A DNA stretch of 11,593 nt, taken from UHGV virus genome UHGV-1887975; one strand, 5' to 3'. The notes below the pieces were generated by a model. That model saw only the letters and a list, made by a program, of their open reading frames with translations, ran no database searches and was not told the origin of the DNA. The position numbers and the translations under genes are program-made. Positions 1 to 11,593 of the stretch are shown piece by piece. Each line of letters opens with the position of its first letter. Positions within the stretch are counted from its first letter, which is position 1. Source of the DNA: a virus.

Positions 1-128
1 CATAAAGTAAGGTCAATTACGCCAAAAATGACATTTTCACTGATCCTGATCGTCTTGCCTTATTGAATATGATTGCTATTTGCATTTAAAATCGAGACCT
101 GGTTTTTCTACTGAAATGATTATGACTT

Positions 129-141
129 CAATGACCCTTGA
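129..141. repeat. 13-bp exact direct repeat CAATGACCCTTGA, left copy; candidate left attachment-site core
   Basis: Identical 13-mer at 129..141 and 11514..11526, the latter immediately distal to the integrase gene. A single 13-mer match in an 11.6 kb window is not by itself significant. Confidence 0.3.
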
Positions 142-258
142 ATAAAGTCTATTCGGTTTTCTTTAGATGTTCGCCTCACATAATCTTCAAGTGATGTTCC
201 TTACATCTCCCTAGAGCGTTAAGATAGTTAACTGATTGAGTTTTCAGGGTATGAAAGG

Positions 259-924
259 ATGAGCAACACTACTGATTGGGGAAGCATGATAGCCAACATA
301 GTTATGGCTACTACCGCTGTCTGGGCTGCATTCAAAGCTAATGACTGGTTTAAAACCAAGCGTCTTGAGAGTGCTGAAAACTTCTATAAAGAAGTACACA
401 ATCTCCATAAACGTTACTATTCAGCTATCCAATACGTTGAGGATTCAAGAAGAATATTTGATAGTCAGTATGGGTTGCATTCGCCAATATCTGAACCTAA
501 AGACAAGTCATTGCAATGGGAGGTTAAATCGAACTCTTACAAAATCATCGCTGAACTAGATTATCTGGCATCGTCACTACAAATGATGGATGCAATGGGT
601 AACAAACTTAGCCCTAAATCGGCTTCACTGGTTAGTGATATGATGGAAGCACATGGACGATTCTGTAATGATGTGATGAACTTCAATGACTCAGTTTGGA
701 AGGTTATAAGGGCAGGTATAACTGAAGAGAACATCCCACATACGCGAGGCTATGTGAACGGCGATTACATGGCTATCCTTACCAGTATGGATGAACCTGT
801 AAGAATATCTTTTAAGTTAAAAGAAATCAGTTTTAAAGATTTTTACTTACATGAAACTACTATGCAGTCAGTAATAACGAGGCTGAAATCGCTTATCGCC
901 AGAACAGGTAAAAACAGGACATAA
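259..924 (+). CDS. Hypothetical protein, 221 aa, with predicted N-terminal transmembrane anchor
   Basis: Uninterrupted 666-nt ORF. Residues about 10-26 (IANIVMATTAVWAAF) form a hydrophobic helix followed by a charged soluble domain. The AAAGGA purine run abuts the ATG at 259 with essentially no spacer, so the true start may be the in-frame ATG at 286. No recognisable family motif. Confidence 0.55.
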   Translation: MSNTTDWGSMIANIVMATTAVWAAFKANDWFKTKRLESAENFYKEVHNLHKRYYSAIQYVEDSRRIFDSQYGLHSPISEPKDKSLQWEVKSNSYKIIAELDYLASSLQMMDAMGNKLSPKSASLVSDMMEAHGRFCNDVMNFNDSVWKVIRAGITEENIPHTRGYVNGDYMAILTSMDEPVRISFKLKEISFKDFYLHETTMQSVITRLKSLIARTGKNRT

Positions 925-1112
925 ACAGGTTAGTACCTATGCAATTTAACGGTATTTTTCCAAGTATCTATGCAATCCTACACAGATTCTATACAGTATC
1001 GACATAGTTTCCTTTTGGTATAACTTATTGAAATATATAAAGAATCTGTGAAGCCCCTTTTCAGGGTAAACTGTATCGTGTTAGTCGTCCCTCTCTCGAC
1101 TCCTAGAAAAGT

Positions 1113-1142
1113 GCTATATACAGGGCTATATAATGCTATATA
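1113..1142. repeat. Three tandem copies of GCTATATA (starts 1113, 1125, 1135)
   Basis: Direct reading: GCTATATAcaggGCTATATAatGCTATATA, spacing 12 and 10 bp. Contains a TATAAT hexamer at 1129..1134. Confidence 0.5.
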
Positions 1143-2591
1143 GATAGTTGGTCACATGGTGTAACTATCAAACTACTTAACAGTTTCCTACGTGAAAGTT
1201 AGAAAGTGATAGTTATAGTTACCTTGTCAAATCTTCGTAGTCCATTCTTAAAAAATCACTTACAGACACCTTAATATCTATACAGATTTCATGTAGAACA
1301 CGATTAGTGCGTAGAAGAGTCATTATGTTAAAAACGAACTGTATACGTATCAGTACTGATTTATAAGGGTTTTGTGTATTTGAAGATAAGAGGCTATACA
1401 GCACCTTGAGAGCATGTCTTCTAAGTCATTGATACATAAGGTCACAGAAGTTTGTGTCTGTTACAGAGAAAACTGGATAGGACTTCACAGAACTACAAAA
1501 TGTTACAGCTATTGATAGGTGAAATCTTCTTGATAGATGCCTTGAAGTGTGGTGAAGGTTTCTTGAGGTGGAGCTAAACAGATGCTATGAAGAAAGTCAA
1601 TAGTTGGTTATAGATATTTTAACTGCTTTTGCAAAGGGGGTGCTGTATCGTGAATCTGGGGTACTTAACAGCCATCAATCATGAGGTAGATTCTACCGAA
1701 TCAACTGTGTAGATATTTTTTAAGATTATCGGTGAAGGGGGAATGCAGAGGGGGGTACTACGATTTTTATAAAAATTTTCAGAAGCCAAATAACTACTGT
1801 GTATATTTTGCACAATCCTGCCAAACCTCATAGAAAGCTCTGTAGCGAGTTTTAACCCCATTTTTAGGGGTAACCTGTAGGGATGTACCACCCACCTTAA
1901 AATAAAGGGGTAAAATCGCTTAGAATGCGTTACAGAGCGTCTGAGAAGCTATATTCACAGATTTTACTAAAGTCTCAGACTTCTAAGTAGTCTTTTTAAC
2001 GGGAGGGTTCTTTCTCATGTATCACCCTCTCTTCCCGCTAAGTAAGCTACACAGACCTAGAGAACATGCCTTCACAGCATCTATATCAGGTCAGATTTAG
2101 AGGGTTTTGATAGAATTTTCAAAGGTACTTGACAGATAACTATGAAGTTGTTAGGAAGAATTGTTTAACGGGAGGAAAGATACGATATAACCCGAAGGGA
2201 AAGTATCATCTTAACAGTGATTGTAAGAGATACCTGAAAAGCTCCTCTTAACAGAACTACCAAGAAGAGAGGGAACGATAAGACCAGAGGTAGTGACCTG
2301 TTAAATAGTTCGTTTCAAAGCTCTTAAGAGTCTGTTAAGTAAGGGCTATGTGAACAATCTTACCATTTTGTCAATGCTCTTGTCTTTGACCTAAATCAAT
2401 AAAATGTATCGTTTGATATGGTTTTAAGCAAGATGGCTAAAAATCTTTTTAGAGGGGCGCTTCGCTTGTGTCACTATGTTCTTTCTCTCCCTGTCTAAGA
2501 GGGGGGTTACAGAGGTCTTTCAAGTCTCAATAGACAAACCGAGGAACGCAGGAAACCGAGGGAAGAAAAACTATTGTGATTACCCTGAACA

Positions 2592-2625
2592 AGGTCTGTA
2601 AAGGTCGTTTAAGAGGTCGGTTAAG
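2592..2625. repeat. Three tandem AGGTC-containing units of 10-12 bp (AGGTC at 2592, 2602, 2614); iteron-like
   Basis: Direct reading: aAGGTCtgtaa / AGGTCgtttaag / AGGTCggttaag. The last two units are 12 bp and differ at one position. Confidence 0.5.
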
Positions 2626-2749
2626 AAAGGAGCTTCCCTCTCTGGGGTTGTCGCTCTTCTCTCGCTTGGTGGATTGATTAGGGGGTATGTTATACAAGCC
2701 CAACTAAGAAGACCTCTGAAGCTTACCTGTGAAGAAGCTGAACAGCTAT

Positions 2750-2900
2750 TATATTGGGTGATTACAACTCATTGAAAAATAAGCATTTTTAGAAATCACT
2801 GTTAAGGTTGCAGAGTTGTCTGTGAGGAGACTTGTCTGCTCTCTATATTGGGTGGTTACAACTTATTGAAAAATAAGAACTTTTAGAAATCACTGTCAGA
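2750..2900. repeat. Pair of 57-bp imperfect direct repeats (2750..2806 and 2844..2900), 94-bp period
   Basis: Aligned by eye: TATATTGGGTGaTTACAACTcATTGAAAAATAAGcatTTTTAGAAATCACTGT versus TATATTGGGTGgTTACAACTtATTGAAAAATAAGaacTTTTAGAAATCACTGT, roughly 50 of 57 identical. Confidence 0.6.
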
Positions 2901-2998
2901 GAGGTGAATACTTGATAGATACAGCTTTCCGGTTCTGTCAAGTCATTTTTTAATAGATAGCATAAAATGCTAAAGATACCCCTATACCATCACGTACA

Positions 2999-3030
2999 GG
3001 GGGTTTTGAAGGGGGTTTAACGGGGGTCTG
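2999..3030. repeat. Three tandem G5-tract units (GGGGG at 2999, 3011, 3022)
   Basis: Direct reading: GGGGGTTTTGAA / GGGGGTTTAAC / GGGGGTCTGTG, spacing 12 and 11 bp. Overlaps the 3' end of the - strand small ORF. Confidence 0.5.
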
Positions 3031-3193
3031 TGTGGTCATTATCCTTAAGGTCAAGCGTCCATGTACGACCGAACAGTTTAAAGACAACAAGCACTCTGAC
3101 GAGGACGTAGCGAAGTAGCAGGCCTGCAATAAGTCCAATACCTCCACCAGCCCATACATCAGGTGACCCCAATTCTGGAGGGAGATTTACCAT
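3017..3193 (-). CDS. Putative small membrane protein, 58 aa (MVNLPPELGSPDVWAGGGIGLIAGLLLRYVLVRVLVVF...)
   Basis: Internal ATG of the track ORF 3017..3235 at 3191..3193 is preceded on the - strand by AAGGA about 7 nt upstream. It encodes a strongly hydrophobic glycine-rich helix of about 23 residues. It lies within locally GC-richer sequence, antisense to all neighbouring genes. Could be spurious. Confidence 0.35.
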   Translation of the reverse strand: MVNLPPELGSPDVWAGGGIGLIAGLLLRYVLVRVLVVFKLFGRTWTLDLKDNDHTDPR

Positions 3194-3410
3194 TAAATTT
3201 CCTTGTAAGACGCTCTCAATCGCATTCTGACACAAAAAAGTACCTGACCTTATAGTTGACCTGAAGAGGCCATTTAACTCGTTACAGAGCGATTGAAGAG
3301 GTCTGTGTGCAATGCAATAACCATGTGACCACTCTCATAGCCACGCCTCATATTTTACTCTCCCCATAGAACCATTATACCACAGATGTTAATGAAATGT
3401 TAAAAAGTGC

Positions 3411-3439
3411 TTGACATTAGTCTTTGAAAATGCTAGTAT
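3411..3439 (+). promoter_or_regulatory. Sigma70-type promoter: TTGACA, 17-bp spacer, TAGTAT
   Basis: Consensus -35 TTGACA at 3411..3416, 17-nt spacer, -10 TAGTAT at 3434..3439 (4 of 6 to TATAAT), about 48 bp upstream of the ATG at 3488. A TTAACAGAGG word sits at the expected transcription start. Confidence 0.55.
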
Positions 3440-3487
3440 TGTATATAAGTTAACAGAGGATTAACAATTATAAGGACTAGCTTATGA

Positions 3488-4042
3488 ATGAACGACAGAG
3501 AATTTAGAGCGATGCTTCAGGCATCAAGAGAACGCAACAAGCACAACTCCTACGCTTACACAAACAACCCCACCAGCTACGAACTACCAGCCTTTTCCAA
3601 ATCCGAACGTAAAAGCATTGAAGCGGTCATTCGTAGCATTACGCCACGAGGCAGATATATGCCAACACGCAAAACAACAAAGAATAACTTAAAAACTTTC
3701 TTGATGAGTTTTGACAGCTACGAACAATTACCGTCACGAATTGAAGATGTAATTATCGGCACTTGTCGCAGCTTTGGAAGGGATAACTATCACCGGAAAG
3801 TTTTCTATTTGCTTCGAAGCCTTGATGAGATTAACTCAAGCACAGTGACGAGCCATCTTCAAAGACAAGCAACCAGACTTAGCCACGAGCTACCATCTGA
3901 TAAGTATTGCGCTAATTTAACCACCATTTGCAATAAAGTTATCGAGACAATCAATCATCATGTTGGGGTTGGTAATATCAGCCTTACGACCAGTGAGCCA
4001 GACTTTGAATTTGACGTATACGCACAAGCAGAGGAATTTTAA
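3488..4042 (+). CDS. Hypothetical protein, 184 aa
   Basis: First gene after the predicted promoter; AAGGA about 10 nt upstream of the ATG. Basic, Ser/Thr/Arg-rich. No motif I can recognise. Confidence 0.65.
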   Translation: MNDREFRAMLQASRERNKHNSYAYTNNPTSYELPAFSKSERKSIEAVIRSITPRGRYMPTRKTTKNNLKTFLMSFDSYEQLPSRIEDVIIGTCRSFGRDNYHRKVFYLLRSLDEINSSTVTSHLQRQATRLSHELPSDKYCANLTTICNKVIETINHHVGVGNISLTTSEPDFEFDVYAQAEEF

Positions 4043-4043
4043 A

Positions 4044-4325
4044 ATGGGAAATAAACACACACTAACCAGAGTTACAAAGACAGCCTTTGAAGAACTTAAC
4101 CGAATCAAAAACATTACAGGTCTGCCACACTCAGCAGTGATGAAGCTTGCAATTAACCGTGATATTAACGAGCAGGATTTGCTTAATAGTCGTTTAGAGG
4201 CAGCAAGACACCATATCAGGATTAAGCAAGATGACCTTGATAGTCTGAAATCTTTAAATGCTTTTGGACTGGATTTAGCAAGGTTACTAAGTATCAAAAT
4301 TCACAAATTAGCGATGGAGGTTTAA
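4044..4325 (+). CDS. Hypothetical small protein, 93 aa (start moved to the RBS-supported ATG)
   Basis: Track ORF 3960..4325 would overlap the upstream gene by about 80 nt. The in-frame ATG at 4044 is preceded by GAGGAA (4031..4036) and begins 2 nt after the upstream stop. Its stop overlaps the next start (TAATG). Confidence 0.6.
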   Translation: MGNKHTLTRVTKTAFEELNRIKNITGLPHSAVMKLAINRDINEQDLLNSRLEAARHHIRIKQDDLDSLKSLNAFGLDLARLLSIKIHKLAMEV

Positions 4326-4711
4326 TGTATGACTTTTATAAACATCGTGACCATTTGGTAAGATTTGACGGTAAAGTCTGGAAAGACGTAACACAAACCA
4401 ATAAGCCCAAGTTTACCCACCAGCAATTAGCCTCAAGATTTGATATCTGGGCTGAAGCACAAAAAGATAATGGTGATTTCGAGTTTATCAGAGGTTTTGA
4501 TTATGCTTACGAAAGCGACCTTAAAGACGCCATTGAATTAATGGAGAACTTCAACTCTATTAAAAATAGTGACAAGCACAAAGCCAACGGTAACAGATAC
4601 GATAAAGATTTAATCATTGATGCAATCACCAAAGGACAATCACAAAGTTATATTTCTGAGAAATACGGCTTATCACGTAGTCAATACTACAAGATTAAAG
4701 CGTCTGTGTAA
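4325..4711 (+). CDS. Putative DNA-binding protein with C-terminal helix-turn-helix, 128 aa; possible transcriptional activator
   Basis: The C-terminal segment DKDLIIDAITKGQSQSYISEKYGLSRSQYYKIKASV has the classic pattern of a helix-turn-helix as found in small phage activators and sigma region-4-like domains. The start is translationally coupled to the upstream gene. Family assignment is an inference. Confidence 0.6.
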   Translation: MYDFYKHRDHLVRFDGKVWKDVTQTNKPKFTHQQLASRFDIWAEAQKDNGDFEFIRGFDYAYESDLKDAIELMENFNSIKNSDKHKANGNRYDKDLIIDAITKGQSQSYISEKYGLSRSQYYKIKASV

Positions 4712-4723
4712 GTCTGTGAGAAT

Positions 4724-4792
4724 GAGTGAGACTCAAAGATGAGCTACCCTATTACTAAGGTGTCTCACTCCCTCTGTAACCCGCATGGTTAC
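4724..4792 (+). promoter_or_regulatory. Two consecutive hairpin-forming inverted repeats in the gap between genes
   Basis: Perfect 9-bp inverted repeat GAGTGAGAC (4724..4732) / GTCTCACTC (4762..4770) with a 29-nt loop, followed by a 6-bp stem GTAACC (4776..4781) / GGTTAC (4787..4792) with a 5-nt loop. No U-tract follows either, so they are not classic terminators. Confidence 0.4.
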
Positions 4793-4849
4793 TGGCCTCA
4801 GAATGGCTATTTTGGCAGATTTAAGATGTGTTTTTATAGGATTTTAAAA

Positions 4850-5173
4850 ATGAATAATTTCCCACTACAGATTTTTATTGATACCGACACCGCCATGATG
4901 ATTCAGGCTTTCACTGATGTAGGTGTTAGCATTGACTTTGATAAGTTGTTAGAGTTAATGGCTGATNATNCNGANANCATCTNTGACTTTATTCACTCGG
5001 TGGAGTTTAACGAGCCTCGAATGATGTTACCAATTACAGACAGTAATATGAAAAGATTGGTTATTGAGCAAACGAACAAATACAGTATTTCCCCAGAGCA
5101 ATTTTTGAAAGGTGCTGTGACAATCCTGTACAGCGATAATATTTTGGTTACGGATTCCGTGAGGGTTCACTAA
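4850..5173 (+). CDS. Hypothetical protein, about 107 aa (alternative start 4739 gives 144 aa); contains ambiguous bases
   Basis: Track ORF 4739..5173. The ATG at 4739 lies inside the hairpin region, so the in-frame ATG at 4850 is preferred, but neither has a strong RBS. Codons 4967..4984 include N, so several residues are undefined. Confidence 0.45.
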   Translation: MNNFPLQIFIDTDTAMMIQAFTDVGVSIDFDKLLELMADXXXXIXDFIHSVEFNEPRMMLPITDSNMKRLVIEQTNKYSISPEQFLKGAVTILYSDNILVTDSVRVH

Positions 5174-5250
5174 TGGGCTTAATAATTGCTTGGACGTTGC
5201 TTGGCTTATTTGTTGGTTGCTGGGTGGGTAACACAGTAAATAAGAATTGA
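5173..5250 (+). CDS. Candidate micro-ORF encoding a 25-aa hydrophobic peptide (MGLIIAWTLLGLFVGCWVGNTVNKN)
   Basis: Its ATG overlaps the upstream stop (TAATG at 5171..5175), suggesting translational coupling. The peptide is almost entirely one transmembrane-like helix. Below the length cut-off of the ORF track and could be fortuitous. Confidence 0.3.
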   Translation: MGLIIAWTLLGLFVGCWVGNTVNKN

Positions 5251-5468
5251 TGTTATCAATCTGTTAAAAGCTGTTGACAAATAACCTTAAGCATGAGATG
5301 ATGGTAATAGGGGGCAACTCTTCCTGAATTAAACTATTAATCATTCTACATCAATGATAGTTATTCTGAGTTGGAAAGGTGCAATGCTTTTCGTCATGGC
5401 CTATTTAGCCCACACTAGATAGGCTATCTCAAAAAGTCTTTGTTTATTCATTGAATCCTTTACAGATT

Positions 5469-5496
5469 GCCCTAATCATGAGTTAGGGCGTTTTTT
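5469..5496 (+). terminator. Rho-independent terminator
   Basis: Perfect 7-bp stem GCCCTAA (5469..5475) / TTAGGGC (5483..5489), 7-nt loop, followed by G then TTTTTT (5491..5496). Confidence 0.65.
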
Positions 5497-5667
5497 AAGA
5501 GTTTTTAAAGAAATTTCTTCACCAGCCCTTTATAGCGTTTTAGTTATCTAGGGCTTTTTCAGCTTTTAAAAAGCATACTTGGCAAACGCTTTTAAGTCTC
5601 TTCTAAGTTCGTAGGCTGTCAGGTGTGCTTTTTAAAAACTGAATATTACTTAGAAGAGGAAAAAACA

Positions 5668-6378
5668 ATGACAAACGATTTATATATTAACGGCAGAAAG
5701 ATTGATAGCTTCGGGGACTGGTCACCACAGGGTGAACATCCGCTACATACTATTCAGCGTAAAGAACACGATGAAAGAATTAAGCTTGAGCAAGAGTTAA
5801 AGATGTCACCAAAGGTAATTTCCTTTGTGTCTCCTGAGCCTCAAGAAATGCCTGATGTATGCAAAACTGAAGCACTATTTAATCTTGAGCGTGAATATTA
5901 CCCACTGCTAAAAGCACAGCGTATTAAACTAGATGACGCTTACAGCAAAGTTACCCTGATGCAATCAGCTATTGAGCCATCAGAATTTGAGATTCAGGAT
6001 GAATTGTCACAGAAACCATTTGTCTATTACAAATATGAAGACAATGATGGTTTTGGTACTTTTCCTGAGAATATCCCAGACGTGATTAATAATCTTCCTG
6101 ATGGATATCGAATTGTGAAGATGGTTAAAGCTTCAAGAGGTGCTGGTCAGTTTATTTTCATGACCGATAGGAGCGATGAAGAACTCTGTGAAATTGCTAA
6201 ACAGAACATCTTAGCATCACGTAACAAGCAACTTGAAAATGTTAAGTTGTATCTCTCAAGAGAGCTTCAGGCTATGAAAGAGCTTGTTAGTGAATATGAA
6301 TCACAGAAGAAGATTGCTATGCAGGCTGATATTGAGCAGTTAGTGAAGATTTCTCAGAAATATGCAAAGGCACTTTAA
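5668..6378 (+). CDS. Hypothetical protein, 236 aa (start moved to the RBS-supported ATG)
   Basis: Track ORF starts at 5623. The in-frame ATG at 5668 is preceded by GAGGA (5656..5660) with 7-nt spacing. Acidic, with a coiled-coil-like C-terminus. No recognisable motif. Confidence 0.65.
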   Translation: MTNDLYINGRKIDSFGDWSPQGEHPLHTIQRKEHDERIKLEQELKMSPKVISFVSPEPQEMPDVCKTEALFNLEREYYPLLKAQRIKLDDAYSKVTLMQSAIEPSEFEIQDELSQKPFVYYKYEDNDGFGTFPENIPDVINNLPDGYRIVKMVKASRGAGQFIFMTDRSDEELCEIAKQNILASRNKQLENVKLYLSRELQAMKELVSEYESQKKIAMQADIEQLVKISQKYAKAL

Positions 6379-6402
6379 CTATGAATTAAAAGGAGGTGGT
6401 GA

Positions 6403-6606
6403 ATGATTGATTTAACAGAACGCTATGAGCTTATTAAAGCAATTAGTGAACGATTGAAAGAACAACCCAACAAACCAAAACGAATCAAATCATCCACCTC
6501 TAAGCAAAAGAATAGAATCAGAAGAATCGCTAAATGGTGTCTTGATAAATTACCAAGTGATTGTCAGATTGTCGGTGAAGATGGTAATTATTATCTGGTT
6601 AGGTAA
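6403..6606 (+). CDS. Hypothetical small basic protein, 67 aa
   Basis: Strong RBS AAGGAGG (6390..6396) 6 nt upstream of the ATG. Lys/Arg-rich centre (KPKRIKSSTSKQKNRIRRIAK). Followed by a terminator. Confidence 0.65.
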   Translation: MIDLTERYELIKAISERLKEQPNKPKRIKSSTSKQKNRIRRIAKWCLDKLPSDCQIVGEDGNYYLVR

Positions 6607-6631
6607 AAAGATTGGTTGGGTAAAAATCAAC

Positions 6632-6672
6632 GGGAGAGATTATCGAGTGACATCGGTAGCTCTCCCTTTTTT
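6632..6672 (+). terminator. Rho-independent terminator
   Basis: Stem GGGAGAG (6632..6638) / CTCTCCC (6660..6666) enclosing a 21-nt loop, followed directly by TTTTTT (6667..6672). Confidence 0.6.
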
Positions 6673-6702
6673 GTATATGAGATAGTCTTCTATCGAATCC
6701 TG

Positions 6703-6801
6703 TGTGCTACGTGATGATTCGGATAAGAATTATCCTCATGAAATCTGTAAAACTAATACCCACACTGAAAAATAGAATTTACGTACAACACGCTTAAAGA
6801 G
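6703..6801 (+). promoter_or_regulatory. Upstream regulatory cassette, copy 1: GTGTGCTACGTGA, ATACCCAC-N-AAAAAT, TTTACGTA, CACGCTTAAAGAG
   Basis: The same four blocks occur in the same order upstream of the gene at 9102. This copy carries an extra palindrome GGATAAGAATTATCC (6721..6735) between the first and second blocks. Confidence 0.55.
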
Positions 6802-6812
6802 GTGAAACATGA

Positions 6813-8936
6813 ATGAGCAAATTCACAGTTGATAGTTTTATCGTTGAGCTAGGCTTCAATGAAAACGTTATTAAGGGACTGCAAAGAGTTGAAAAGGCAG
6901 CTTTGCAGTCAGCACAAAGAATTGAAAAGAACCTAAATAAAGGTTTCAGGATTAATACAAAGCAGCTTGATAGTAATTTAACGGCTTCTTTAGGGCAGCT
7001 TGAAAGGAAGTTTAATAAGGCCTTTGACAAGATTGAACAGAGAGCAAGAAATACTAAAGCTTTCCAGTTTACCACCAGATTTAATGACACTGTTAATCCT
7101 CCAAAACAACCAAGACAGCCACGAATTAGCGGAAACAGAGCAATCACAGCAGCTTACTCAGCGAATATGAGCAAGCTAAAAGGCCTTAACCCAATTGTCG
7201 AGAAATACATTAAGAGTCAGTTTTACGGGCTATCTGCTAAAGCCGGGTCAATGGATTCTTCAAAATTCAATGAGAAGTTAGCTCAGTTAAACGCTTCAGT
7301 CAGAGAAGCAATTGCTAAAGCCAGAGGTCATACATCCACCAGCATTAATGGTGACAGAGCAGCTAATAGTCTTGATAACCTGTCTTCAGCAGCAGTTAAA
7401 ACAGCAGGTGCATTTATCTCAATGCAGGCTGTATTAGCCAGTTATCAGAAGATTATGGAAATTGGTTTACAGCGTGCAAGTGCTGAACGTTCAATTGATT
7501 TCGTATTTGATAAAGATGCAGGTCAGGTAAAAGAGTTCACAAAGTCATTAGCTCAAACAACGGGTTTAGATATCGCTGAACTGCAATCACAGTTTGCTGG
7601 TTTTGGTGCTTCAGCTAAAGAGTCTATGGGTATTCAAGGTTCTGAAGAACTTTTTAAAAATATGATTGGCTATGCTCGTCTGATGGGGAGAAGTGAAGAA
7701 GAGATTAAGCGAGCACTGACAGCATTATCACAGATGGCTGGTAAGGGTCAGATTATGGCTGAAGAGCTTAAGGGGCAACTGGCTGAAGCTGTTCCTGGTA
7801 TGGTTCAGGTATTCGCTAAAGCAACCGGAAAGACTGAACAGGAATTATTTGATGCCATGAAGAAGGGGGCTTTAAAATCTGCCGATACTCTTCAGAAGGT
7901 CACTCAGGAACTGAATAAACAAATCACCGCTAAAGGTGGCTGGAAAGCCATTTCAGAAAGTACTCAGGCACAACTAGGGAACTTGAAAAACTCTTGGAAT
8001 ACCACGCTTGATAGTATCTTCAGAGGTTCTGAAAATGGTCTGCAAGATTTTACACGAAGCCTAACAACGCTTTTAAACGCTCTTGGTGGAAGTGGTAAAA
8101 GTCTTGGTGAATCTCTTGGTAGTCTCATGACTTCTATGTCACATGGTGTCGATAGTCTGACCGATATTAGTTACAAGGTGCGAGCGTTCTTTGATGAGGT
8201 GACATTAGCTTACCGTTCACTAAATGACACTCAGAGGAAAATTGTTGATGGTTTATCTGATGGGTTAATTGATGGTTTGAAGATGCTTGCTGTGGCTGTT
8301 ACTGCTCAAAAGGCTGCAAATGTAGCTGGAGGCTTGTTAAACCTTGCAAATGCTGTTACTTCATTCGGTGATGCTGTTAATAAAGCTAAAGCTGGCAAGG
8401 CTGGTTCTTCAGGTGGTGCGCTAAGTAAAGTCGGTAGAGTTGTCCTTTATGCTGAGTTGGTAAACTTTGCTCTTGATAATTTAAACCCTGAAGCAGCTAA
8501 GAATCCGAACTTACACCAATCAGGTATTGGTACAGAAACAAACTTCAATCCTGAATACAAAGGCGATTCTAAACCAAACCAAATTAATGAGGGGTGGGCT
8601 AAGATTGGTAGTTCTATCGCTGACTGGTTTAATGGTGCAGCTAATAAAATTGCTAACTTACAAGAACCGATGAATAACTTCGTAAATAACACACAATCAA
8701 CTCCACCAGCTATCGACACGGTGAATATCAATGCTCAATTAGCTATGGCTGTATCAGAGTTAGGAAGAAAGGTTGATGCTTTAACAGTAGAAGCTCGGAA
8801 GCCTTTATCAGTTAATATCAAAGGTGAAGCAATTGTTAGGCCGGATGAGCCATCTTTCTTTAATTTCAATCAATCAGCTAATGACCAGTTCACGCAGGAT
8901 ATGCTCTTAAGTTCAAGCTATCCAGAGGAAGAATGA
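6813..8936 (+). CDS. Tape-measure-domain protein, 707 aa (putative phage tail length tape-measure protein)
   Basis: The central segment GYARLMGRSEEEIKRALTALSQMAGKGQIMAEELKGQLAEAVPGMVQVFAKATGKTEQELFDAMKKGALKSADTL matches, as I recall it, the conserved tape-measure signature of lambda gpH-type proteins. N-terminus is coiled-coil-like; C-terminal third is Asn/Gln/Ser-rich low complexity. RBS AGAGGTG about 10 nt upstream. Confidence 0.75.
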   Translation: MSKFTVDSFIVELGFNENVIKGLQRVEKAALQSAQRIEKNLNKGFRINTKQLDSNLTASLGQLERKFNKAFDKIEQRARNTKAFQFTTRFNDTVNPPKQPRQPRISGNRAITAAYSANMSKLKGLNPIVEKYIKSQFYGLSAKAGSMDSSKFNEKLAQLNASVREAIAKARGHTSTSINGDRAANSLDNLSSAAVKTAGAFISMQAVLASYQKIMEIGLQRASAERSIDFVFDKDAGQVKEFTKSLAQTTGLDIAELQSQFAGFGASAKESMGIQGSEELFKNMIGYARLMGRSEEEIKRALTALSQMAGKGQIMAEELKGQLAEAVPGMVQVFAKATGKTEQELFDAMKKGALKSADTLQKVTQELNKQITAKGGWKAISESTQAQLGNLKNSWNTTLDSIFRGSENGLQDFTRSLTTLLNALGGSGKSLGESLGSLMTSMSHGVDSLTDISYKVRAFFDEVTLAYRSLNDTQRKIVDGLSDGLIDGLKMLAVAVTAQKAANVAGGLLNLANAVTSFGDAVNKAKAGKAGSSGGALSKVGRVVLYAELVNFALDNLNPEAAKNPNLHQSGIGTETNFNPEYKGDSKPNQINEGWAKIGSSIADWFNGAANKIANLQEPMNNFVNNTQSTPPAIDTVNINAQLAMAVSELGRKVDALTVEARKPLSVNIKGEAIVRPDEPSFFNFNQSANDQFTQDMLLSSSYPEEE

Positions 8937-8952
8937 TTTCTTATATATATCC

Positions 8953-9026
8953 GTGTGCTACGTGAAATCTTCTGAACGGATATACCCACTAAAAATTATT
9001 TTTTACGTAGCTCACGCTTAACAGAG
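8953..9026 (+). promoter_or_regulatory. Upstream regulatory cassette, copy 2: GTGTGCTACGTGA, ATACCCACTAAAAAT, TTTACGTA, CACGCTTAACAGAG
   Basis: Same four blocks as 6703..6801 in the same order and similar spacing, but without the palindrome insert. Ends about 75 nt upstream of the ATG at 9102. Confidence 0.55.
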
Positions 9027-9101
9027 AAAATACTTATATATCAAAGGTTTGGTTAAAAATGATTAAAATACACTAAGCCTTTGAAATCAAAGGAGAATTT
9101 A

Positions 9102-9872
9102 ATGATTTACACTAATCAGCTTCGTTACAGTGGCAAAGATGGTGTTTACTTCCATCTACAAGGCCAACCAGATAATTTCTTGTCACTATCAGCAACTGAG
9201 AACATGGAATATGACAGCCCTATGATGGTGACCACTCAAAATATGCAATCAGGGCAGACTGTAACAGATAATGTAATGCGTTCACCAAGAACTATTTCAA
9301 TCAGTGGTGTGGTTGTGGTTGGTGAATCCGGTAGTATCCTTATCTCAAGAGATAATAAGCTGGTGGAAAACTTCATAGACACTCTTGAAAACTGGCGTGA
9401 CCAGAAGCAAATTATCTCAGTTGTCTGTAAAGATGGTATTAAGATTGACGACTCAATTATTACAAGCTTTAAAGCCTCTAAAGATGTTGGTATTTCAAAC
9501 GGCCTAAGAATCCAGCTAACTTTTCAGGAAATCAACTTTAAAGCTATCGTAGGGCAAACTGATATTTCGACTGCTACTGGCAAGACCGCTACCACGAATG
9601 ATGGTGGTGCTACTTCTAAGAAGAATACAGGGAATACTACGACAAGTCTTGGAAGCCCTATGCTGACCTGTAAAGAGCTTTTTAGCTATTCGGCAAGTAA
9701 GTTATCAGATGAAGCGCTAAAAGCCCGTGTAACGTGCTCTAAGAGCGTTAGCGTTAAAAATGGTGAGAGCACCTTCACAGCCTCAGCTAATGAGCAAGCT
9801 TCAAAGGTGCTTAAGTCGGGTAATGCTTTACGGAAGTACTCTGTGAATCCGAATAAGAAGGGCACTTATTGA
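9102..9872 (+). CDS. Hypothetical protein, 256 aa; possible tail-associated structural protein by position only
   Basis: The track ORF begins at a TTG (9081). The ATG at 9102 has AAGGAG (9090..9095) at 6-nt spacing. Ser/Thr/Gly-rich. Assignment as tail-associated rests only on its position after the tape-measure-like gene. Confidence 0.65.
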
Positions 9873-9876
9873 GACA

Positions 9877-9899
9877 TAAAAAGGGGCTTCATAGCCCCT
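9877..9899. terminator. Terminator hairpin between convergent genes
   Basis: Perfect 7-bp GC-rich stem AGGGGCT (9882..9888) / AGCCCCT (9893..9899) with a 4-nt loop. AAAAA (9877..9881) on the + strand gives a U-tract after the stem for the - strand transcript (integrase); a weaker A/T stretch follows for the + strand. Confidence 0.6.
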
Positions 9900-9904
9900 G
9901 AAAA

Positions 9905-11425
9905 TTACAGTTGATAAGCGTCAATATCCAGTAGCTCTTTATCAGCAATTTCAAAGATTGGTGACCCATCATTTAGCGGTAACGGGTTTGTAGGTATGGT
10001 TATTTCAGTGTCGTTCTGTAGCGTTACAGTTACCGAATCCTTACCCAATGTCAGCCCCTTTAGATGCTTGGACAAAATCAACTGACACTCGACACGACCC
10101 GCTTTAGTTGTCAGGTCAATATCTTTAAGCTGGGGTAGTTCCTTATCAGTGAGTGAAGCCTTACGCCTCATGTTATCAATCGTGGTCTGTAGCTCTGTGC
10201 GCTTCTGGTTCAGTTCCTTAAGCTGAATTTTTAGTTCATCAATATCATCCATCTCAAGAAGTAGGGCGGTAGCTTTCTTGATTCTGGTTGTGACAATTTC
10301 AACCTCATGCTGTAGAGATGCAATCTTCCCCTCTGCTTCTCCATCATTCCCCACGTCAATCATCCCCAGAAAATTATCAATCATCCACTTATCAAACGGT
10401 TTACGCTTCAACGGAGGAACATCACAGCGACCATCAAGATGGTTATTGCACCGATAAACGCCCTGATACTTATTCTTAGTCCCTGTAGGGTGAACACTAG
10501 CCCCGCACTGACACCTAAACAGACCTTTGAAGATGTTAATCGTTAATGGATTATCACTTGCAGGTGTACGGCCTATACGGTTCTTACCAAGAATCTCTTG
10601 AGCTTTATTGAACGTTGAAGCATCTATAGCGGCTTCGTAGTAGTTCGGTATAGCGGGGCGGTCATTACGTTGTGATGCTGGTAACGTGCCTATCGTTGTC
10701 TCTGACCTTAAGATGGTGCGTACAGAGTGAACACTAAACCCGTTAGCATCTTTACGGCGACTAAACGACTTTATACCGTTGCTTTGAAGGTGACGGGCGA
10801 TGTTATGCAGACTTTCACCACTTAGCAGCAGCTTGAAAATCAGTCTTACAGTCTCAGCGTGTTCATTGAGTTTAAAAGTATCGGGGTCAATCCATCCGGG
10901 AACCATCTTTGTTAAACGTTGTTCACCAGCAAGGGCAAGTTTTGCACGTTGCTCCCATTTCTGAGAAACACGGAAAGACTTCTGCTTAGATTCCTGATGC
11001 GCTATGTAGGCTTTGACACGCTGGATGATTGAGATTCCTAAATCATCGGCTAAAGCATCCTTTGTGTAGATAAGACCATCTTGTAGCGTGTGAATCTCTA
11101 ACCCGTTGCCTAAGATGCGATTCATCAAGGCTTCTGTTTCAAGGTGTTCTAAGCGGCCTATACGGTCGATACTCTCAACAAGCAAAATCGTACCTTCTGG
11201 AAACTCCCCAGACTCAATACGGGCTAACATGTCACCAAACTGACCAGTAAGATGCTTACCTTTGTAACCGGATAGGCCTTCATCACTGAAAGACGCTACT
11301 ACTTGAGCATCGCTATTCTTCTTCAGCCACTGCTTGAACAGGTCGTTTTGTCGTCTGGTTGAATCTGCACCTTCAGCGCCTTGTATAGCTGAACTGTACC
11401 GAAGGTATGTAATTACGCTCCTCAT
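9905..11425 (-). CDS. int: Large serine recombinase (site-specific integrase), 506 aa
   Basis: N-terminal resolvase-type catalytic domain with candidate nucleophilic Ser in YLRYSSAIQ, a D-x-G-x-SG motif (SDEGLSGYKG) and LVESIDRIGR resembling the resolvase DRLGR box. A large recombinase domain follows, then a Cys-rich zinc-ribbon-like segment (CQCG...C...C) and a C-terminal coiled coil. This is the typical large-serine-recombinase architecture. GGGAG RBS upstream on the - strand. Confidence 0.9.
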   Translation of the reverse strand: MRSVITYLRYSSAIQGAEGADSTRRQNDLFKQWLKKNSDAQVVASFSDEGLSGYKGKHLTGQFGDMLARIESGEFPEGTILLVESIDRIGRLEHLETEALMNRILGNGLEIHTLQDGLIYTKDALADDLGISIIQRVKAYIAHQESKQKSFRVSQKWEQRAKLALAGEQRLTKMVPGWIDPDTFKLNEHAETVRLIFKLLLSGESLHNIARHLQSNGIKSFSRRKDANGFSVHSVRTILRSETTIGTLPASQRNDRPAIPNYYEAAIDASTFNKAQEILGKNRIGRTPASDNPLTINIFKGLFRCQCGASVHPTGTKNKYQGVYRCNNHLDGRCDVPPLKRKPFDKWMIDNFLGMIDVGNDGEAEGKIASLQHEVEIVTTRIKKATALLLEMDDIDELKIQLKELNQKRTELQTTIDNMRRKASLTDKELPQLKDIDLTTKAGRVECQLILSKHLKGLTLGKDSVTVTLQNDTEITIPTNPLPLNDGSPIFEIADKELLDIDAYQL

Positions 11426-11488
11426 GGTGATAAACTCCCATGCAATTGATTCTCATTTAAAGATAAGCTTATAACCATTATGGCTAAT

Positions 11489-11526
11489 GCTACAATGCCG
11501 AATAGCTACAATACAATGACCCTTGA
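11489..11526. repeat. Integrase-proximal repeat cluster: GCTACAATG / GCTACAAT / ACAATG, then the right copy of CAATGACCCTTGA; candidate attachment-site region
   Basis: Direct reading of 11489..11526. The 13-mer at 11514..11526 is identical to 129..141. Sequence to the right becomes GC-rich (cctcgccgcttcccctggccgacg...). Confidence 0.4.
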
Positions 11527-11593
11527 TTTACCTCGCCGCTTCCCCTGGCCGACGTTACTTTCGGTCTGCATTCATGGTGCTGTTGTGGCGGGG

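What the first reader, a model, noticed from the sequence alone, without database searches (positions are those of the whole stretch)
9905..11593. Large serine recombinase next to a repeat cluster and an abrupt composition shift
The integrase gene ends the element. Just distal to its start lie short direct repeats (GCTACAATG, GCTACAAT, ACAATG) and then sequence that is visibly GC-rich compared with the rest of the window (11527 onward). This is the expected layout of an att junction with host DNA. The host sequence may be part of a gene interrupted by the insertion.
Basis: partly seen in the sequence, partly recalled or inferred. Interest (0 to 1): 0.55.

Follow-up and report, generated by a model that had tools for sequence, protein, structure and literature searches.

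The report
Serine-integrase island docked at tonB start
The flagged region is the right-hand end of an 11.4-kb mobile island that a large serine integrase inserted at the start codon of the E. coli iron-uptake gene tonB, leaving the gene intact but cut off from its own iron-regulated promoter.

Summary
ORF 9905-11425 (minus strand) is a complete large serine recombinase (LSR). The last 67 bases are the most GC-rich 67-nt stretch in the window and encode the first 26 codons of E. coli tonB. Both junctions lie in the window. A 13-bp duplication, CAATGACCCTTGA, sits at 129-141 and 11514-11526 and brackets an 11,385-bp island. K-12 has the uninterrupted site, and about 96% of 5,426 complete E. coli genomes lack this junction. 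Relatives in other hosts narrow the shared core to CAATGAC. Four rebuilt attP sites are 44-bp imperfect palindromes centred on AC, which is tonB nucleotides +4/+5, so AC is the predicted crossover. The island supplies tonB's ATG. The native Fur-regulated promoter now lies 11.4 kb upstream and points into the island. No better-than-chance promoter toward tonB was found in the 90-nt int-tonB spacer. The GCTACAAT repeats are at chance level, are not conserved, and are not the att duplication. Separately, the island carries tape-measure and Dit-like tail genes and a non-coding segment resembling the Felixounavirus terminal repeat. This suggests, without proving, a satellite-like relationship. Verdict: a new member of a known kind, of moderate interest.

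The parts
1..128 (+). Host DNA: the yciI-tonB intergenic region left of the island, now separated from tonB
   Evidence: Near-identical to K-12 L002 1450-1577. Forms one half of the 207-bp empty-site hit in most E. coli genomes.
63..92 (+). Native tonB promoter (TTGAAT-18-TAAAAT) with the native Fur-box-like site at 65-83. It now points into the island.
   Evidence: Found by the promoter scan. My PWM score is 9.4, the best in the region. The Fur consensus matches 12/19 at position 65. Fur regulation of tonB is established knowledge and was not tested here.
129..141 (.). Left copy of the 13-bp att core CAATGACCCTTGA (attL, B-O-P'). The predicted crossover dinucleotide AC is at 134-135. The mini-ORF ATGACCCTTGAATAA (MTLE*) is at 131-145.
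142..156 (.). P' half-site of attP, ending in the outer arm CTATTCGG (149-156)
   Evidence: Perfect inverted repeat of CCGAATAG at 11498-11505. The arm is conserved in L004, L006, L009, L022 and L061.
136..11518 (.). Island-derived DNA. The unit length is 11,385 bp, counted core to core.
   Evidence: Core copies at 129 and 11514. GC 0.396. 99.8% identical to the island in E. coli UTAK-18.
2248..2362 (.). Non-coding island segment homologous to the interior of the Felixounavirus 581-bp direct terminal repeat. It lies within the ORF-poor region 925-3488.
   Evidence: 73% identity over 118 nt (E 1e-9) to Pr103Blw. 71% over 143 nt (64 bits) to HK3. Random phage chunks give at most 38 bits.
6813..8936 (+). 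Tape-measure protein gene (707 aa)
   Evidence: Pfam TMP_3 and PHROG tape-measure families. 29% aa identity over the full length to the Felixounavirus HK3 tape-measure protein.
9081..9872 (+). Dit-like tail/baseplate protein gene (263 aa)
   Evidence: Pfam Dit_like. 72% aa and about 81% nt identity to the gene directly downstream of the tape-measure gene in Felixounavirus.
9882..9899 (-). Terminator-like hairpin with a T-run on the minus strand only (the int terminator). No T-run follows it on the plus strand.
9905..11425 (-). Large serine recombinase (integrase) gene, 506 aa
   Evidence: The clade is at least 57% identical within Enterobacteriaceae, and the next relatives are below 35%.
11426..11515 (.). 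90-nt spacer between the int ATG and the tonB ATG. This island DNA now sits where the tonB promoter and leader were.
   Evidence: Alignment of six relatives. Not homologous to the native promoter region.
11442..11460 (.). Conserved block AAnTGATTnTCAnT that resembles a Fur box (12/19 here). Function unknown.
   Evidence: Invariant columns 22-35. Relatives L004, L006 and L009 carry the exact Fur-core 11-mer TGATAATCATT (13/19) at the same aligned place. A 12/19 match is at chance level within this window.
11477..11493 (.). Conserved block TATGGCTAATGCTAC outside attP. It overlaps a candidate int -10 (TAGCAT on the minus strand, 11492-11487) and the TG of the candidate extended -10 TGCTACAAT (11488-11496) that faces tonB.
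11489..11512 (+). Copy 2 lies inside the attP P half-site and copy 1 lies outside it.
   Evidence: Relatives read TACATC, TACTAT or TACCTC at copy 1 and GCTCAAAT or GCTTCAAT at copy 2. An 8-mer repeat like this is chance-level.
11498..11513 (.). P half-site of attP: outer arm CCGAATAG (11498-11505) plus inner CTACAATA
   Evidence: The dyad-symmetry scan centres on AC in four island subtypes, with 13-16 of 22 matches against 9-10 for the next best centre.
11514..11526 (.). Right copy of the att core CAATGACCCTTGA (attR, P-O-B'). The predicted crossover AC is at 11519-11520.
11516..11593 (+). 5' end of the tonB coding sequence (26 codons; runs off the window)
   Evidence: Translation. RefSeq annotates tonB here in island-bearing genomes.

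Best explanation
Region 9905-11593 is the integrase end of an 11,385-bp integrative island together with its attR junction with the E. coli chromosome. The island's large serine recombinase recombined a roughly 44-bp imperfectly palindromic attP with an attB that spans the tonB start codon. The attP is CCGAATAG-N14-AC-N13... ending in CTATTCGG. The attB is ..TTCAATG-AC-CCTTGAT... Strand exchange is predicted at the dinucleotide AC, which is tonB nucleotides +4/+5. Because attP carries ..ATACAATGAC.., the tonB reading frame is rebuilt with an island-derived ATG. The native promoter, Fur operator and 5' leader of tonB are left 11.4 kb upstream at attL, where they face into the island. The same integrase clade uses this site in E. 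coli, Citrobacter and other enterobacterial contexts while carrying different cargo. Shown here: integrase identity, both junctions, the empty site, site conservation across hosts, and the attP symmetry. Inferred: AC as the exact crossover, current mobility, and any effect on tonB expression. My working inference is that tonB is still expressed, from weak island-borne signals or from read-through, but that its regulation is altered.
For: All three LSR domains and the catalytic motif are present. The 13-bp duplication sits at 129-141 and 11514-11526. The empty site is contiguous in K-12, and most of the 5,426 genomes give a 207-bp two-piece hit. 229 genomes carry the int-tonB junction. Relatives at 57-94% identity all lie divergently about 90 bp from tonB, in E. 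coli FG92-1, Citrobacter ANG330 and loci L006-L010. 42 of 43 metagenome loci do the same. The left junctions of L006 and L009 reduce the shared core to CAATGAC. Four rebuilt attPs have their best dyad centre exactly on AC, with 13-16 of 22 matches against 9-10 for the next best. These dimensions match the A118 integrase system, which has 44 bp of attP sequence information and a 2-bp crossover (PMC3556126). One metagenome contig (L022) has int-spacer-core followed by an island left end, that is, an attP configuration. tonB is annotated intact in every island-bearing locus examined.
Against: Only one contig shows an attP form. It has one extra T compared with integrated attL sites. None was found in 5,426 E. 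coli genomes, in IMG/VR or by a pattern scan of metagenomes. attB itself is only weakly symmetric, 8 of 22 at AC. No recombination directionality factor was identified. No plus-strand sigma-70 promoter better than chance lies in the spacer. The best scores 6.3, which 24% of random island segments equal, against 9.4 for the native promoter, and relatives L004 and L009 have nothing above 3.6. How tonB is transcribed therefore remains open.
Confidence: 0.9

Rival explanations
1. The insertion acts on the host by silencing tonB or uncoupling it from iron control. With its promoter removed, TonB falls. That would reduce sensitivity to TonB-dependent phages (T1, phi80) and colicins at a cost in siderophore uptake, and precise excision would restore normal regulation. 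This would resemble the 'active lysogeny' switches of other serine-integrase elements. It concerns the consequence of the junction and does not compete with the junction's identity.
For: The native promoter and Fur box are displaced 11.4 kb. There is no conserved, better-than-chance sigma-70 promoter facing tonB in six relatives. The spacer is not a captured copy of the native promoter.
Against: Every attP variant regenerates the ATG and codons 1-2. tonB is full length in all island-bearing loci from several hosts, which argues for continued selection on a working gene. The window variant has a plausible extended -10, TGCTACAAT, 19 nt upstream of the ATG. No plus-strand terminator lies between 5490 and tonB, so read-through is possible.
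Confidence: 0.25
2. The short repeats (GCTACAAT twice, ACAATG) are functional. They could be -10 elements of an outward promoter that the island supplies for tonB (TACAAT at 11491, 11507 and 11512), or accessory protein-binding sites of the att region.
For: TGCTACAAT fits an extended -10 and is the top plus-strand candidate in the window, in L005 and, as TACTAT, in L010. A Fur-box-like block lies about 30 nt upstream and is conserved.
Against: The score is at chance level. Copy 1 reads TACATC or TACCTC in L009 and L004, and copy 2 reads GCTCAAAT or GCTTCAAT elsewhere, so the repeat as such is not conserved. 8-mer repeats within 30 nt occur at about 15 loci in this window. By established knowledge, serine integrases do not use arm-type sites. 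Copy 2 is explained by its position inside the P half-site.
Confidence: 0.2
3. The junction is a fossil. The island is a fixed, no longer mobile remnant, and its integrase gene is retained but inactive or repurposed.
For: No excised or tandem form was found in 5,426 complete genomes. No recombination directionality factor was recognised. Most cargo ORFs have no family hit.
Against: The integrase ORF is intact with all its motifs. The same protein, WP_097734980.1, sits beside different TonB alleles and different island interiors in MIN10 and UTAK-18. The clade occupies the same site in different genera with unrelated cargo. Junctions are base-precise everywhere. An attP-configured contig exists.
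Confidence: 0.1
4. There is no junction. The GC rise merely reflects the composition of a neighbouring gene within a conserved native arrangement.
For: The GC-rich segment is indeed just the tonB coding sequence.
Against: Empty sites predominate, and the two window ends are contiguous in K-12.
Confidence: 0.01

Closest known systems
Serine-integrase prophages and excisable elements inserted in host genes: Listeria A118/phi10403S in comK, and B. subtilis SPbeta in spsM and skin in sigK
   Same: A large serine recombinase with Resolvase, Recombinase and Zn-ribbon domains. attP lies next to int. The att sites are short imperfect palindromes with a 2-bp crossover. The attP size of about 44 bp matches A118. 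Insertion within a host gene means that excision would restore the native state.
   Different: Here the reading frame is regenerated rather than split, and only the promoter and leader are exchanged. The element is not a complete prophage, because no capsid, terminase or lysis genes were detected. The proteins are not close: no PDB sequence hit at E<1e-3, and the nearest phage-borne relative is about 31% identical.
PLE of Vibrio cholerae, a satellite of the virulent myophage ICP1 that integrates with a large serine recombinase (PMC6002521, from its abstract)
   Same: A compact island with an LSR at one end and mostly ORFan cargo. The island has specific sequence ties to one group of virulent myoviruses: tape-measure protein, Dit-like protein and terminal-repeat-like non-coding DNA of Felixounavirus.
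   Different: There is no sequence relationship to PLE. No replication initiator was recognised. Helper-triggered excision, replication and packaging are all untested. The target here is the tonB start.
Phage phi80 attachment site (att80)
   Same: The same chromosomal neighbourhood, kch-yciI-tonB-trp.
   Different: att80 lies between kch and yciI (PMC11148124). It is not at the tonB start. By my own knowledge, phi80 uses a tyrosine integrase.
YbcK-type large serine recombinases of lambdoid E. coli phages and the DLP12 prophage
   Same: The closest phage-borne homologues, aligning over 95% of the length.
   Different: Only about 31% identity. The tonB-site clade is separated from everything else by a gap from 57% or more down to below 35%.

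Membership tests
Large serine recombinase (serine integrase) | N-terminal resolvase-type catalytic domain with the nucleophilic serine motif | tested here: met
   PF00239 at E 8e-16 over residues 4-162. Motif Y7-L-R9-Y-S11-S-A-I-Q15, invariant in 12 relatives.
Large serine recombinase (serine integrase) | C-terminal Recombinase domain plus a zinc-ribbon domain | tested here: met
   PF07508 at E 6e-16 and PF13408 at E 2e-6, both above the curated cut-offs. Cys305, Cys307, Cys326 and Cys334 are invariant.
Large serine recombinase (serine integrase) | Coiled-coil insertion in the zinc-ribbon domain that controls directionality | not tested
   A heptad-rich stretch (about residues 355-420) is visible. 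No structure prediction or coiled-coil scoring was run.
Large serine recombinase (serine integrase) | Short (about 40-50 bp) imperfectly palindromic attP and attB sharing a central non-palindromic dinucleotide, with no arm-type sites | tested here: met
   The 44-bp dyad is centred on AC in four rebuilt attPs. The shared core is as short as CAATGAC. attB symmetry is weak, 8 of 22. The comparison standard is A118.
Large serine recombinase (serine integrase) | Catalyses attP x attB recombination; excision needs a recombination directionality factor | not testable with these tools
   Needs in vitro or in vivo recombination assays. No directionality factor was identified.
Integrated mobile element with a genuine att junction | An uninterrupted target site exists in related genomes, and the element is flanked by a duplicated core | tested here: met
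   K-12 site. 207-bp empty-site hits in most of the 5,426 genomes. Cores at 129 and 11514.
Phage satellite (PLE-, PICI- or P4-like) | Integrase present, small size (about 10-18 kb), and lacking most virion genes | tested here: met
   11.4 kb. Only the tape-measure protein, the Dit-like protein and the integrase have PHROG hits.
Phage satellite (PLE-, PICI- or P4-like) | Own replication module (initiator or primase plus ori) | tested here: not met
   No replication protein was found with Pfam, PHROGs, NCBIfam or PADLOC. The ORF-poor 925-3488 region could hold an ori, but this is unproven.
Phage satellite (PLE-, PICI- or P4-like) | Sequence mimicry of helper packaging or regulatory signals | tested here: inconclusive
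   Similarity over 115-143 nt to the interior of the Felixounavirus DTR, 54-64 bits against at most 38 in controls. Sister islands hit neighbouring parts of the same terminal region, and an island with unrelated cargo has none. The function of that phage segment is unknown.
Phage satellite (PLE-, PICI- or P4-like) | Helper-dependent induction, packaging and transfer | not testable with these tools
   Requires infection experiments.
Complete temperate prophage | Capsid, portal, terminase, lysis and immunity modules | tested here: not met
   None was detected among the ORFs of at least 50 aa.
Fur-regulated promoter supplied by the island | A Fur box overlapping a functional promoter that faces tonB | tested here: inconclusive
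   12/19 in the window, which equals the native box but is chance-level. 13/19 with the exact 11-mer core in three relatives at the same aligned position. No convincing promoter overlaps it.

The most novel reading that the evidence does not exclude
This island, its sister islands at tonB and the sister at yecE may form an undescribed family of E. coli satellites or hyperparasites of virulent FelixO1-like myophages, an enterobacterial analogue of the Vibrio PLE. In this reading a large serine integrase docks the element at the tonB start codon. The element carries variant copies of the helper's tape-measure and Dit-like tail genes, plus a segment of the helper's terminal-repeat region for packaging or for sensing infection. 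While resident, it rewires TonB expression.
Probability: 0.3. Interest if true: 0.8.

Novelty: new member of a known kind. Interest (0 to 1): 0.5.

Why it matters
This defines a new, highly specific serine-integrase att site, with attB spanning the tonB start codon and conserved across enterobacterial genera. It comes with natural attP variants that pin the crossover to a few bases, which is useful for integrase biology and for tool building. It is also an unusual case in which integration swaps a gene's promoter while preserving its reading frame. The gene affected controls iron uptake and sensitivity to TonB-dependent phages and colicins. About 4% of complete E. coli genomes may therefore regulate TonB differently. 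Finally, the cargo points to a possible satellite of virulent Felixounavirus phages, which are used in phage typing and biocontrol. If that is confirmed, it would matter for phage therapy and for understanding how lytic phages are parasitised in E. coli.

Tried and rejected
- **GCTACAAT repeats as the att repeats:** rejected. The real duplication is CAATGACCCTTGA, with its partner at 129-141. The 8-mer repeat is at chance level and is not conserved.
- **Spacer as a captured copy of the native tonB promoter:** rejected. The alignment score is no better than shuffles.
- **A strong island-borne sigma-70 promoter toward tonB:** not found. The strict scan returned 0 sites. PWM scans of the spacer and of 700 nt upstream in six relatives gave nothing conserved or above chance.
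- **Fur box in the spacer:** suggestive in relatives but chance-level in the window, so kept only as a lead.
- **Same site as phi80:** rejected. att80 lies between kch and yciI.
- **Excised form in databases:** a degenerate attP pattern gave 0 hits in IMG/VR and in metagenomes. The integrase is absent from IMG/VR. No contiguous attP was found in 5,426 E. coli genomes. Only L022 turned up, through a protein-based metagenome scan. Its remaining 3.3 kb could not be fetched, so a circle cannot be told apart from a tandem array.
- **RNA genes:** no Rfam family and no tRNA or tmRNA.
- **Defence systems:** no PADLOC hit.
- **Literature:** eight full-text searches found no description of an LSR island at tonB or of a Felixounavirus satellite. 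One apparent tonB hit was the reagent supplier 'Tonbo'.
- **Solved structures:** no PDB sequence homologue of the integrase at E<1e-3.
Full report
**The observation**

ORF 9905-11425 on the minus strand encodes a 506-aa protein. It has the three domains of a large serine recombinase: Resolvase, Recombinase and Zn_ribbon_recom, all above Pfam's cut-offs. It also has the catalytic motif YLRYSSAIQ and a Cys-rich ribbon followed by a heptad-rich stretch.

GCTACAAT is at 11489 and 11505, and ACAATG is at 11492 and 11513.

The composition shift is real. Bases 11527-11593 have GC 0.597, the highest of all 67-nt windows in a sequence whose mean is 0.396 with sd 0.057.

**Where the window comes from**

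The window is E. coli chromosome, 99.8% identical to strain UTAK-18. Its last 78 bases translate to MTLDLPRRFPWPTLLSVCIHGAVVAG, the N-terminus of TonB, with the ATG at 11516-11518. RefSeq annotates tonB at this position in island-bearing genomes.

The first 128 bases are the yciI-tonB intergenic region and include the native tonB promoter, TTGAAT-18-TAAAAT, at 63-92. So both ends of the element lie inside the window.

**The junctions and the empty site**

The sequence CAATGACCCTTGA occurs exactly twice, at 129-141 and 11514-11526. In K-12 MG1655 the two host flanks are contiguous around a single copy...gacttCAATGACCCTTGAtttacc....

The whole window finds matches in 5,423 of 5,426 complete E. 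coli genomes. For most of them the match is a 207-bp, two-piece hit that joins the window's two ends, which is the empty site. A junction probe (11400-11593) is covered at 80% or more in 229 genomes, about 4%.

Neither holds.

The island unit is 11,385 bp with GC 0.396. The tonB-side host flank has GC 0.514.

**How the integrase uses the site**

I rebuilt attP from the two island ends. It reads CCGAATAG CTACAATACAATGA|CCCTTGAATAAAGT CTATTCGG. This is a 44-bp imperfect palindrome with perfect 8-bp outer arms at 11498-11505 and 149-156.

Integrase relatives at 57-94% identity all sit divergently about 90 bp from a tonB start:
- E. coli FG92-1 (L004).
- Citrobacter sp. ANG330 (L005).
- Three further contexts (L006-L010), in two of which the genes around tonB are not those of the E. 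coli locus.
- In each locus whose far end was recovered, yciI lies at the other side.
- Of 43 metagenome loci, 42 are beside tonB.

Two subtypes have a P' arm that differs from the host sequence. Their left junctions read TTCAATGAC|TATTGG (L006) and GTCAATGACC|ATTGAG (L009). This cuts the identity shared by attL and attR to CAATGAC.

A symmetry scan of four rebuilt attPs puts the best dyad centre exactly on the AC of ATG-AC-C each time. AC scores 13-16 of 22 matches, against 9-10 for the next best centre.

AC is non-palindromic, as a serine-integrase crossover must be. The dimensions match the A118 system, which has 44 bp of attP sequence information and exchange at the central 2 bp (PMC3556126).

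I therefore predict exchange at 11519-11520 and 134-135. This is an inference from sequence and has not been demonstrated. attB itself is only weakly symmetric, 8 of 22.

**What this does to tonB**

If the crossover is at AC, the ATG of tonB in island-bearing strains is island DNA. Every attP variant carries ATACAATGAC, so the reading frame is always rebuilt. tonB is annotated full length in every island-bearing locus I examined.

What is lost is the upstream region. The native promoter and its Fur-box-like site (65-83) now lie 11.4 kb away. They read into a 4-codon ORF (MTLE*) and then into island ORF 259-924.

In place of the promoter, tonB is preceded by the 90-nt int-tonB spacer. This spacer is not homologous to the native promoter region.

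I looked for a replacement promoter:
- The strict consensus scan finds none.
It scores 6.3, a value that 24% of random 95-nt island segments equal. The native promoter scores 9.4.
- Relatives L004 and L009 have nothing above 3.6.

A conserved block at 11442-11460 resembles a Fur box. In the window it matches 12/19, the same as the native tonB box but at chance level within this window. In three relatives the aligned position holds the exact consensus core TGATAATCATT (13/19). This is a lead, not a finding.

On the plus strand no terminator-like site lies between 5490 and tonB. The hairpin at 9882-9899 has its T-run only on the int strand, so read-through from island genes is possible.

How tonB is transcribed in these strains is therefore open. 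It is the main functional question this locus raises. Fur regulation of tonB is established knowledge, which I cite from memory and did not test.

**The repeats**

The GCTACAAT pair is not the att duplication. Copy 2 lies inside the P half-site, and copy 1 lies outside attP.

In relatives, copy 1 reads TACATC, TACTAT or TACCTC, and copy 2 reads GCTCAAAT or GCTTCAAT. An 8-mer repeated within 30 nt occurs at about 15 loci in this window (24 positions), against about 6 positions expected by chance. Only the ACAATG at 11513 belongs to the true core.

**Is the element still mobile?**

Evidence for mobility:
- The integrase ORF is intact.
- Junctions are base-precise in all hosts.
- The same integrase protein sits beside different TonB alleles and different island interiors in MIN10 and UTAK-18.
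- The clade occupies one site while carrying unrelated cargo.
- One 12.8-kb metagenome contig (L022, CYGL01000620.1) has int, spacer and core followed by an island left end, with island DNA on both sides. That is an attP configuration, either a circle or a tandem array. The matching left-end type is found integrated at tonB in strain A65EC, and the probe is covered at 80% or more in 147 genomes.

Evidence against:
- That contig has one extra T in the P' arm.
- No attP form exists in the 5,426 complete genomes.
- The attP pattern found nothing in IMG/VR or in the metagenome collection, and the integrase is absent from IMG/VR.
- No directionality factor was recognised.

**What the island is**

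Only three products have family hits: the integrase, a tape-measure protein (6813-8936) and a Dit-like tail protein (9081-9872). There are no hits to defence systems, replication proteins, Rfam families or tRNAs.

The tail-gene pair is in the same order as the tape-measure gene and the gene after it in virulent FelixO1-like myophages. The Dit-like protein is 72% identical to its counterpart in phage HK3. The tape-measure protein is 29% identical over its full length, and the last 25 nt of the two genes are identical.

The island also has a 2.5-kb ORF-poor stretch (925-3488). Part of it (2248-2362) is homologous to the interior of the Felixounavirus 581-bp direct terminal repeat. That repeat is annotated in phage Pr103Blw and was predicted with PhageTerm (PMC8303462).
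- Scores are 54-64 bits, against at most 38 bits for 57 random phage segments.
- Sister islands match neighbouring parts of the same terminal region.
- An island at tonB with unrelated cargo shows nothing.

A sister island with the same gene order but a different serine recombinase splits yecE. Its left-end non-coding DNA occurs in 496 of 5,426 genomes, at up to four places per genome.

These are three independent ties to one group of virulent phages. The overall layout recalls the Vibrio PLE, an LSR-bearing satellite of the lytic phage ICP1 (PMC6002521).

I do not classify the island as a satellite. No replication module was found, and helper dependence is untested. I give the satellite reading about 0.3.

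**Comparison with known systems, and novelty**

The mechanism is that of a classical serine integrase. The defining sequence features of that family were tested and met. Catalysis and the coiled-coil feature were not tested.

The site is distinct from att80, which lies between kch and yciI (PMC11148124). The closest phage-borne integrases are YbcK-like at about 31% identity. The clade is isolated, with identity dropping from 57% or more to below 35%.

Eight full-text searches found no description of an LSR element at tonB or of a Felixounavirus satellite. This shows absence from that library only.

**Verdict**

The finding is a new member of a known kind. The att junction is confirmed. It has one unusual property, promoter replacement at an important, phage-relevant gene. 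It also offers a promising side lead on the nature of the island.

Interest is 0.5.

Noticed in passing
window 925-3488: A stretch of about 2.5 kb has no ORF of 73 aa or more on either strand and no CDS annotated in UTAK-18. It is nevertheless 81-88% conserved in the sister island at yecE. It holds a 53-nt direct repeat (2750-2802 and 2844-2896, 92% identical, 94 nt apart) and recurring CTGTTAAG/CTTAACAG motifs. There is no Rfam or tRNA hit.
   Followed up: partly
window 2248-2362 (also 1596-1642 and 1765-1797): Non-coding similarity to the Felixounavirus genome-end region: the interior and right edge of the 581-bp direct terminal repeat of Pr103Blw, which corresponds to the 1.67-kb gene-free gap at 20,257-21,928 of HK3. 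Sister islands match neighbouring parts of that region, and the FG92-1 island does not.
   Followed up: partly
window 6813-9872: The tape-measure and Dit-like genes are in the same order as in FelixO1-like virulent myophages. The Dit-like protein is 72% aa identical. The tape-measure protein is only 29% identical, but its last 25 nt are identical to the phage gene. No other island ORF has a tblastn hit in phage HK3.
   Followed up: partly
L011 (E. coli WCHEC115106, NZ_CP043334.1 2013043-2028457): A sister island has the same cargo order but a different recombinase-family gene, itself disrupted by ISEc12. It is inserted inside yecE (DUF72) and splits that gene into two pseudogene halves.
   Followed up: no
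L022 (metagenome contig CYGL01000620.1), attP at locus 3870-3890: This is the only attP-configured sequence found, with island DNA on both sides of int-spacer-core. It has one extra T (CCTTGTAATGAAGT against CCTTGAATGAAGT in the integrated A65EC attL). 3.3 kb of the contig could not be retrieved, so circle and tandem cannot be distinguished.
   Followed up: partly
window 131-924: The displaced Fur-regulated tonB promoter now reads into a 4-codon ORF (MTLE*) and then into the co-directional island ORF 259-924 (221 aa, no family hit). In L006, L007 and L009 the first island gene after attL (a DUF4145 protein) is also co-directional. In FG92-1 it is not.
   Followed up: no
L004, L006-L009 (islands at tonB with other cargo): The same integrase clade carries 5-7-kb islands encoding a small resolvase-type recombinase plus DUF4145 or PH-domain proteins, rather than tail genes. 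This cargo resembles that of a defence island.
   Followed up: no
E. coli B1W1, NZ_CP117720.1: The int-tonB junction (2,019,134, plus strand) and the island left end (2,675,021, minus strand) are 656 kb apart on opposite strands. This suggests a large chromosomal inversion with one end inside or beside the island.
   Followed up: no
window 4967-4983: Six ambiguous bases (N) lie within ORF 4739-5173.
   Followed up: no
L015, L018, L019, L027, L041 (metagenome contigs): Several assemblies break 41-48 nt past the att core on the tonB side. This is as expected if strains with and without the island, or attR and attP forms, coexist in the sample and create a branch in the assembly graph at the core.
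   Followed up: no
L037 and L042 (metagenome loci): Variant tonB starts lie next to the island: ATGACCATTGAT (codon 3 Ile) and ATGACCTTTGATGATTTA (Phe plus an extra Asp codon). So the first codons of tonB vary right at the attB B' half-site.
   Followed up: no
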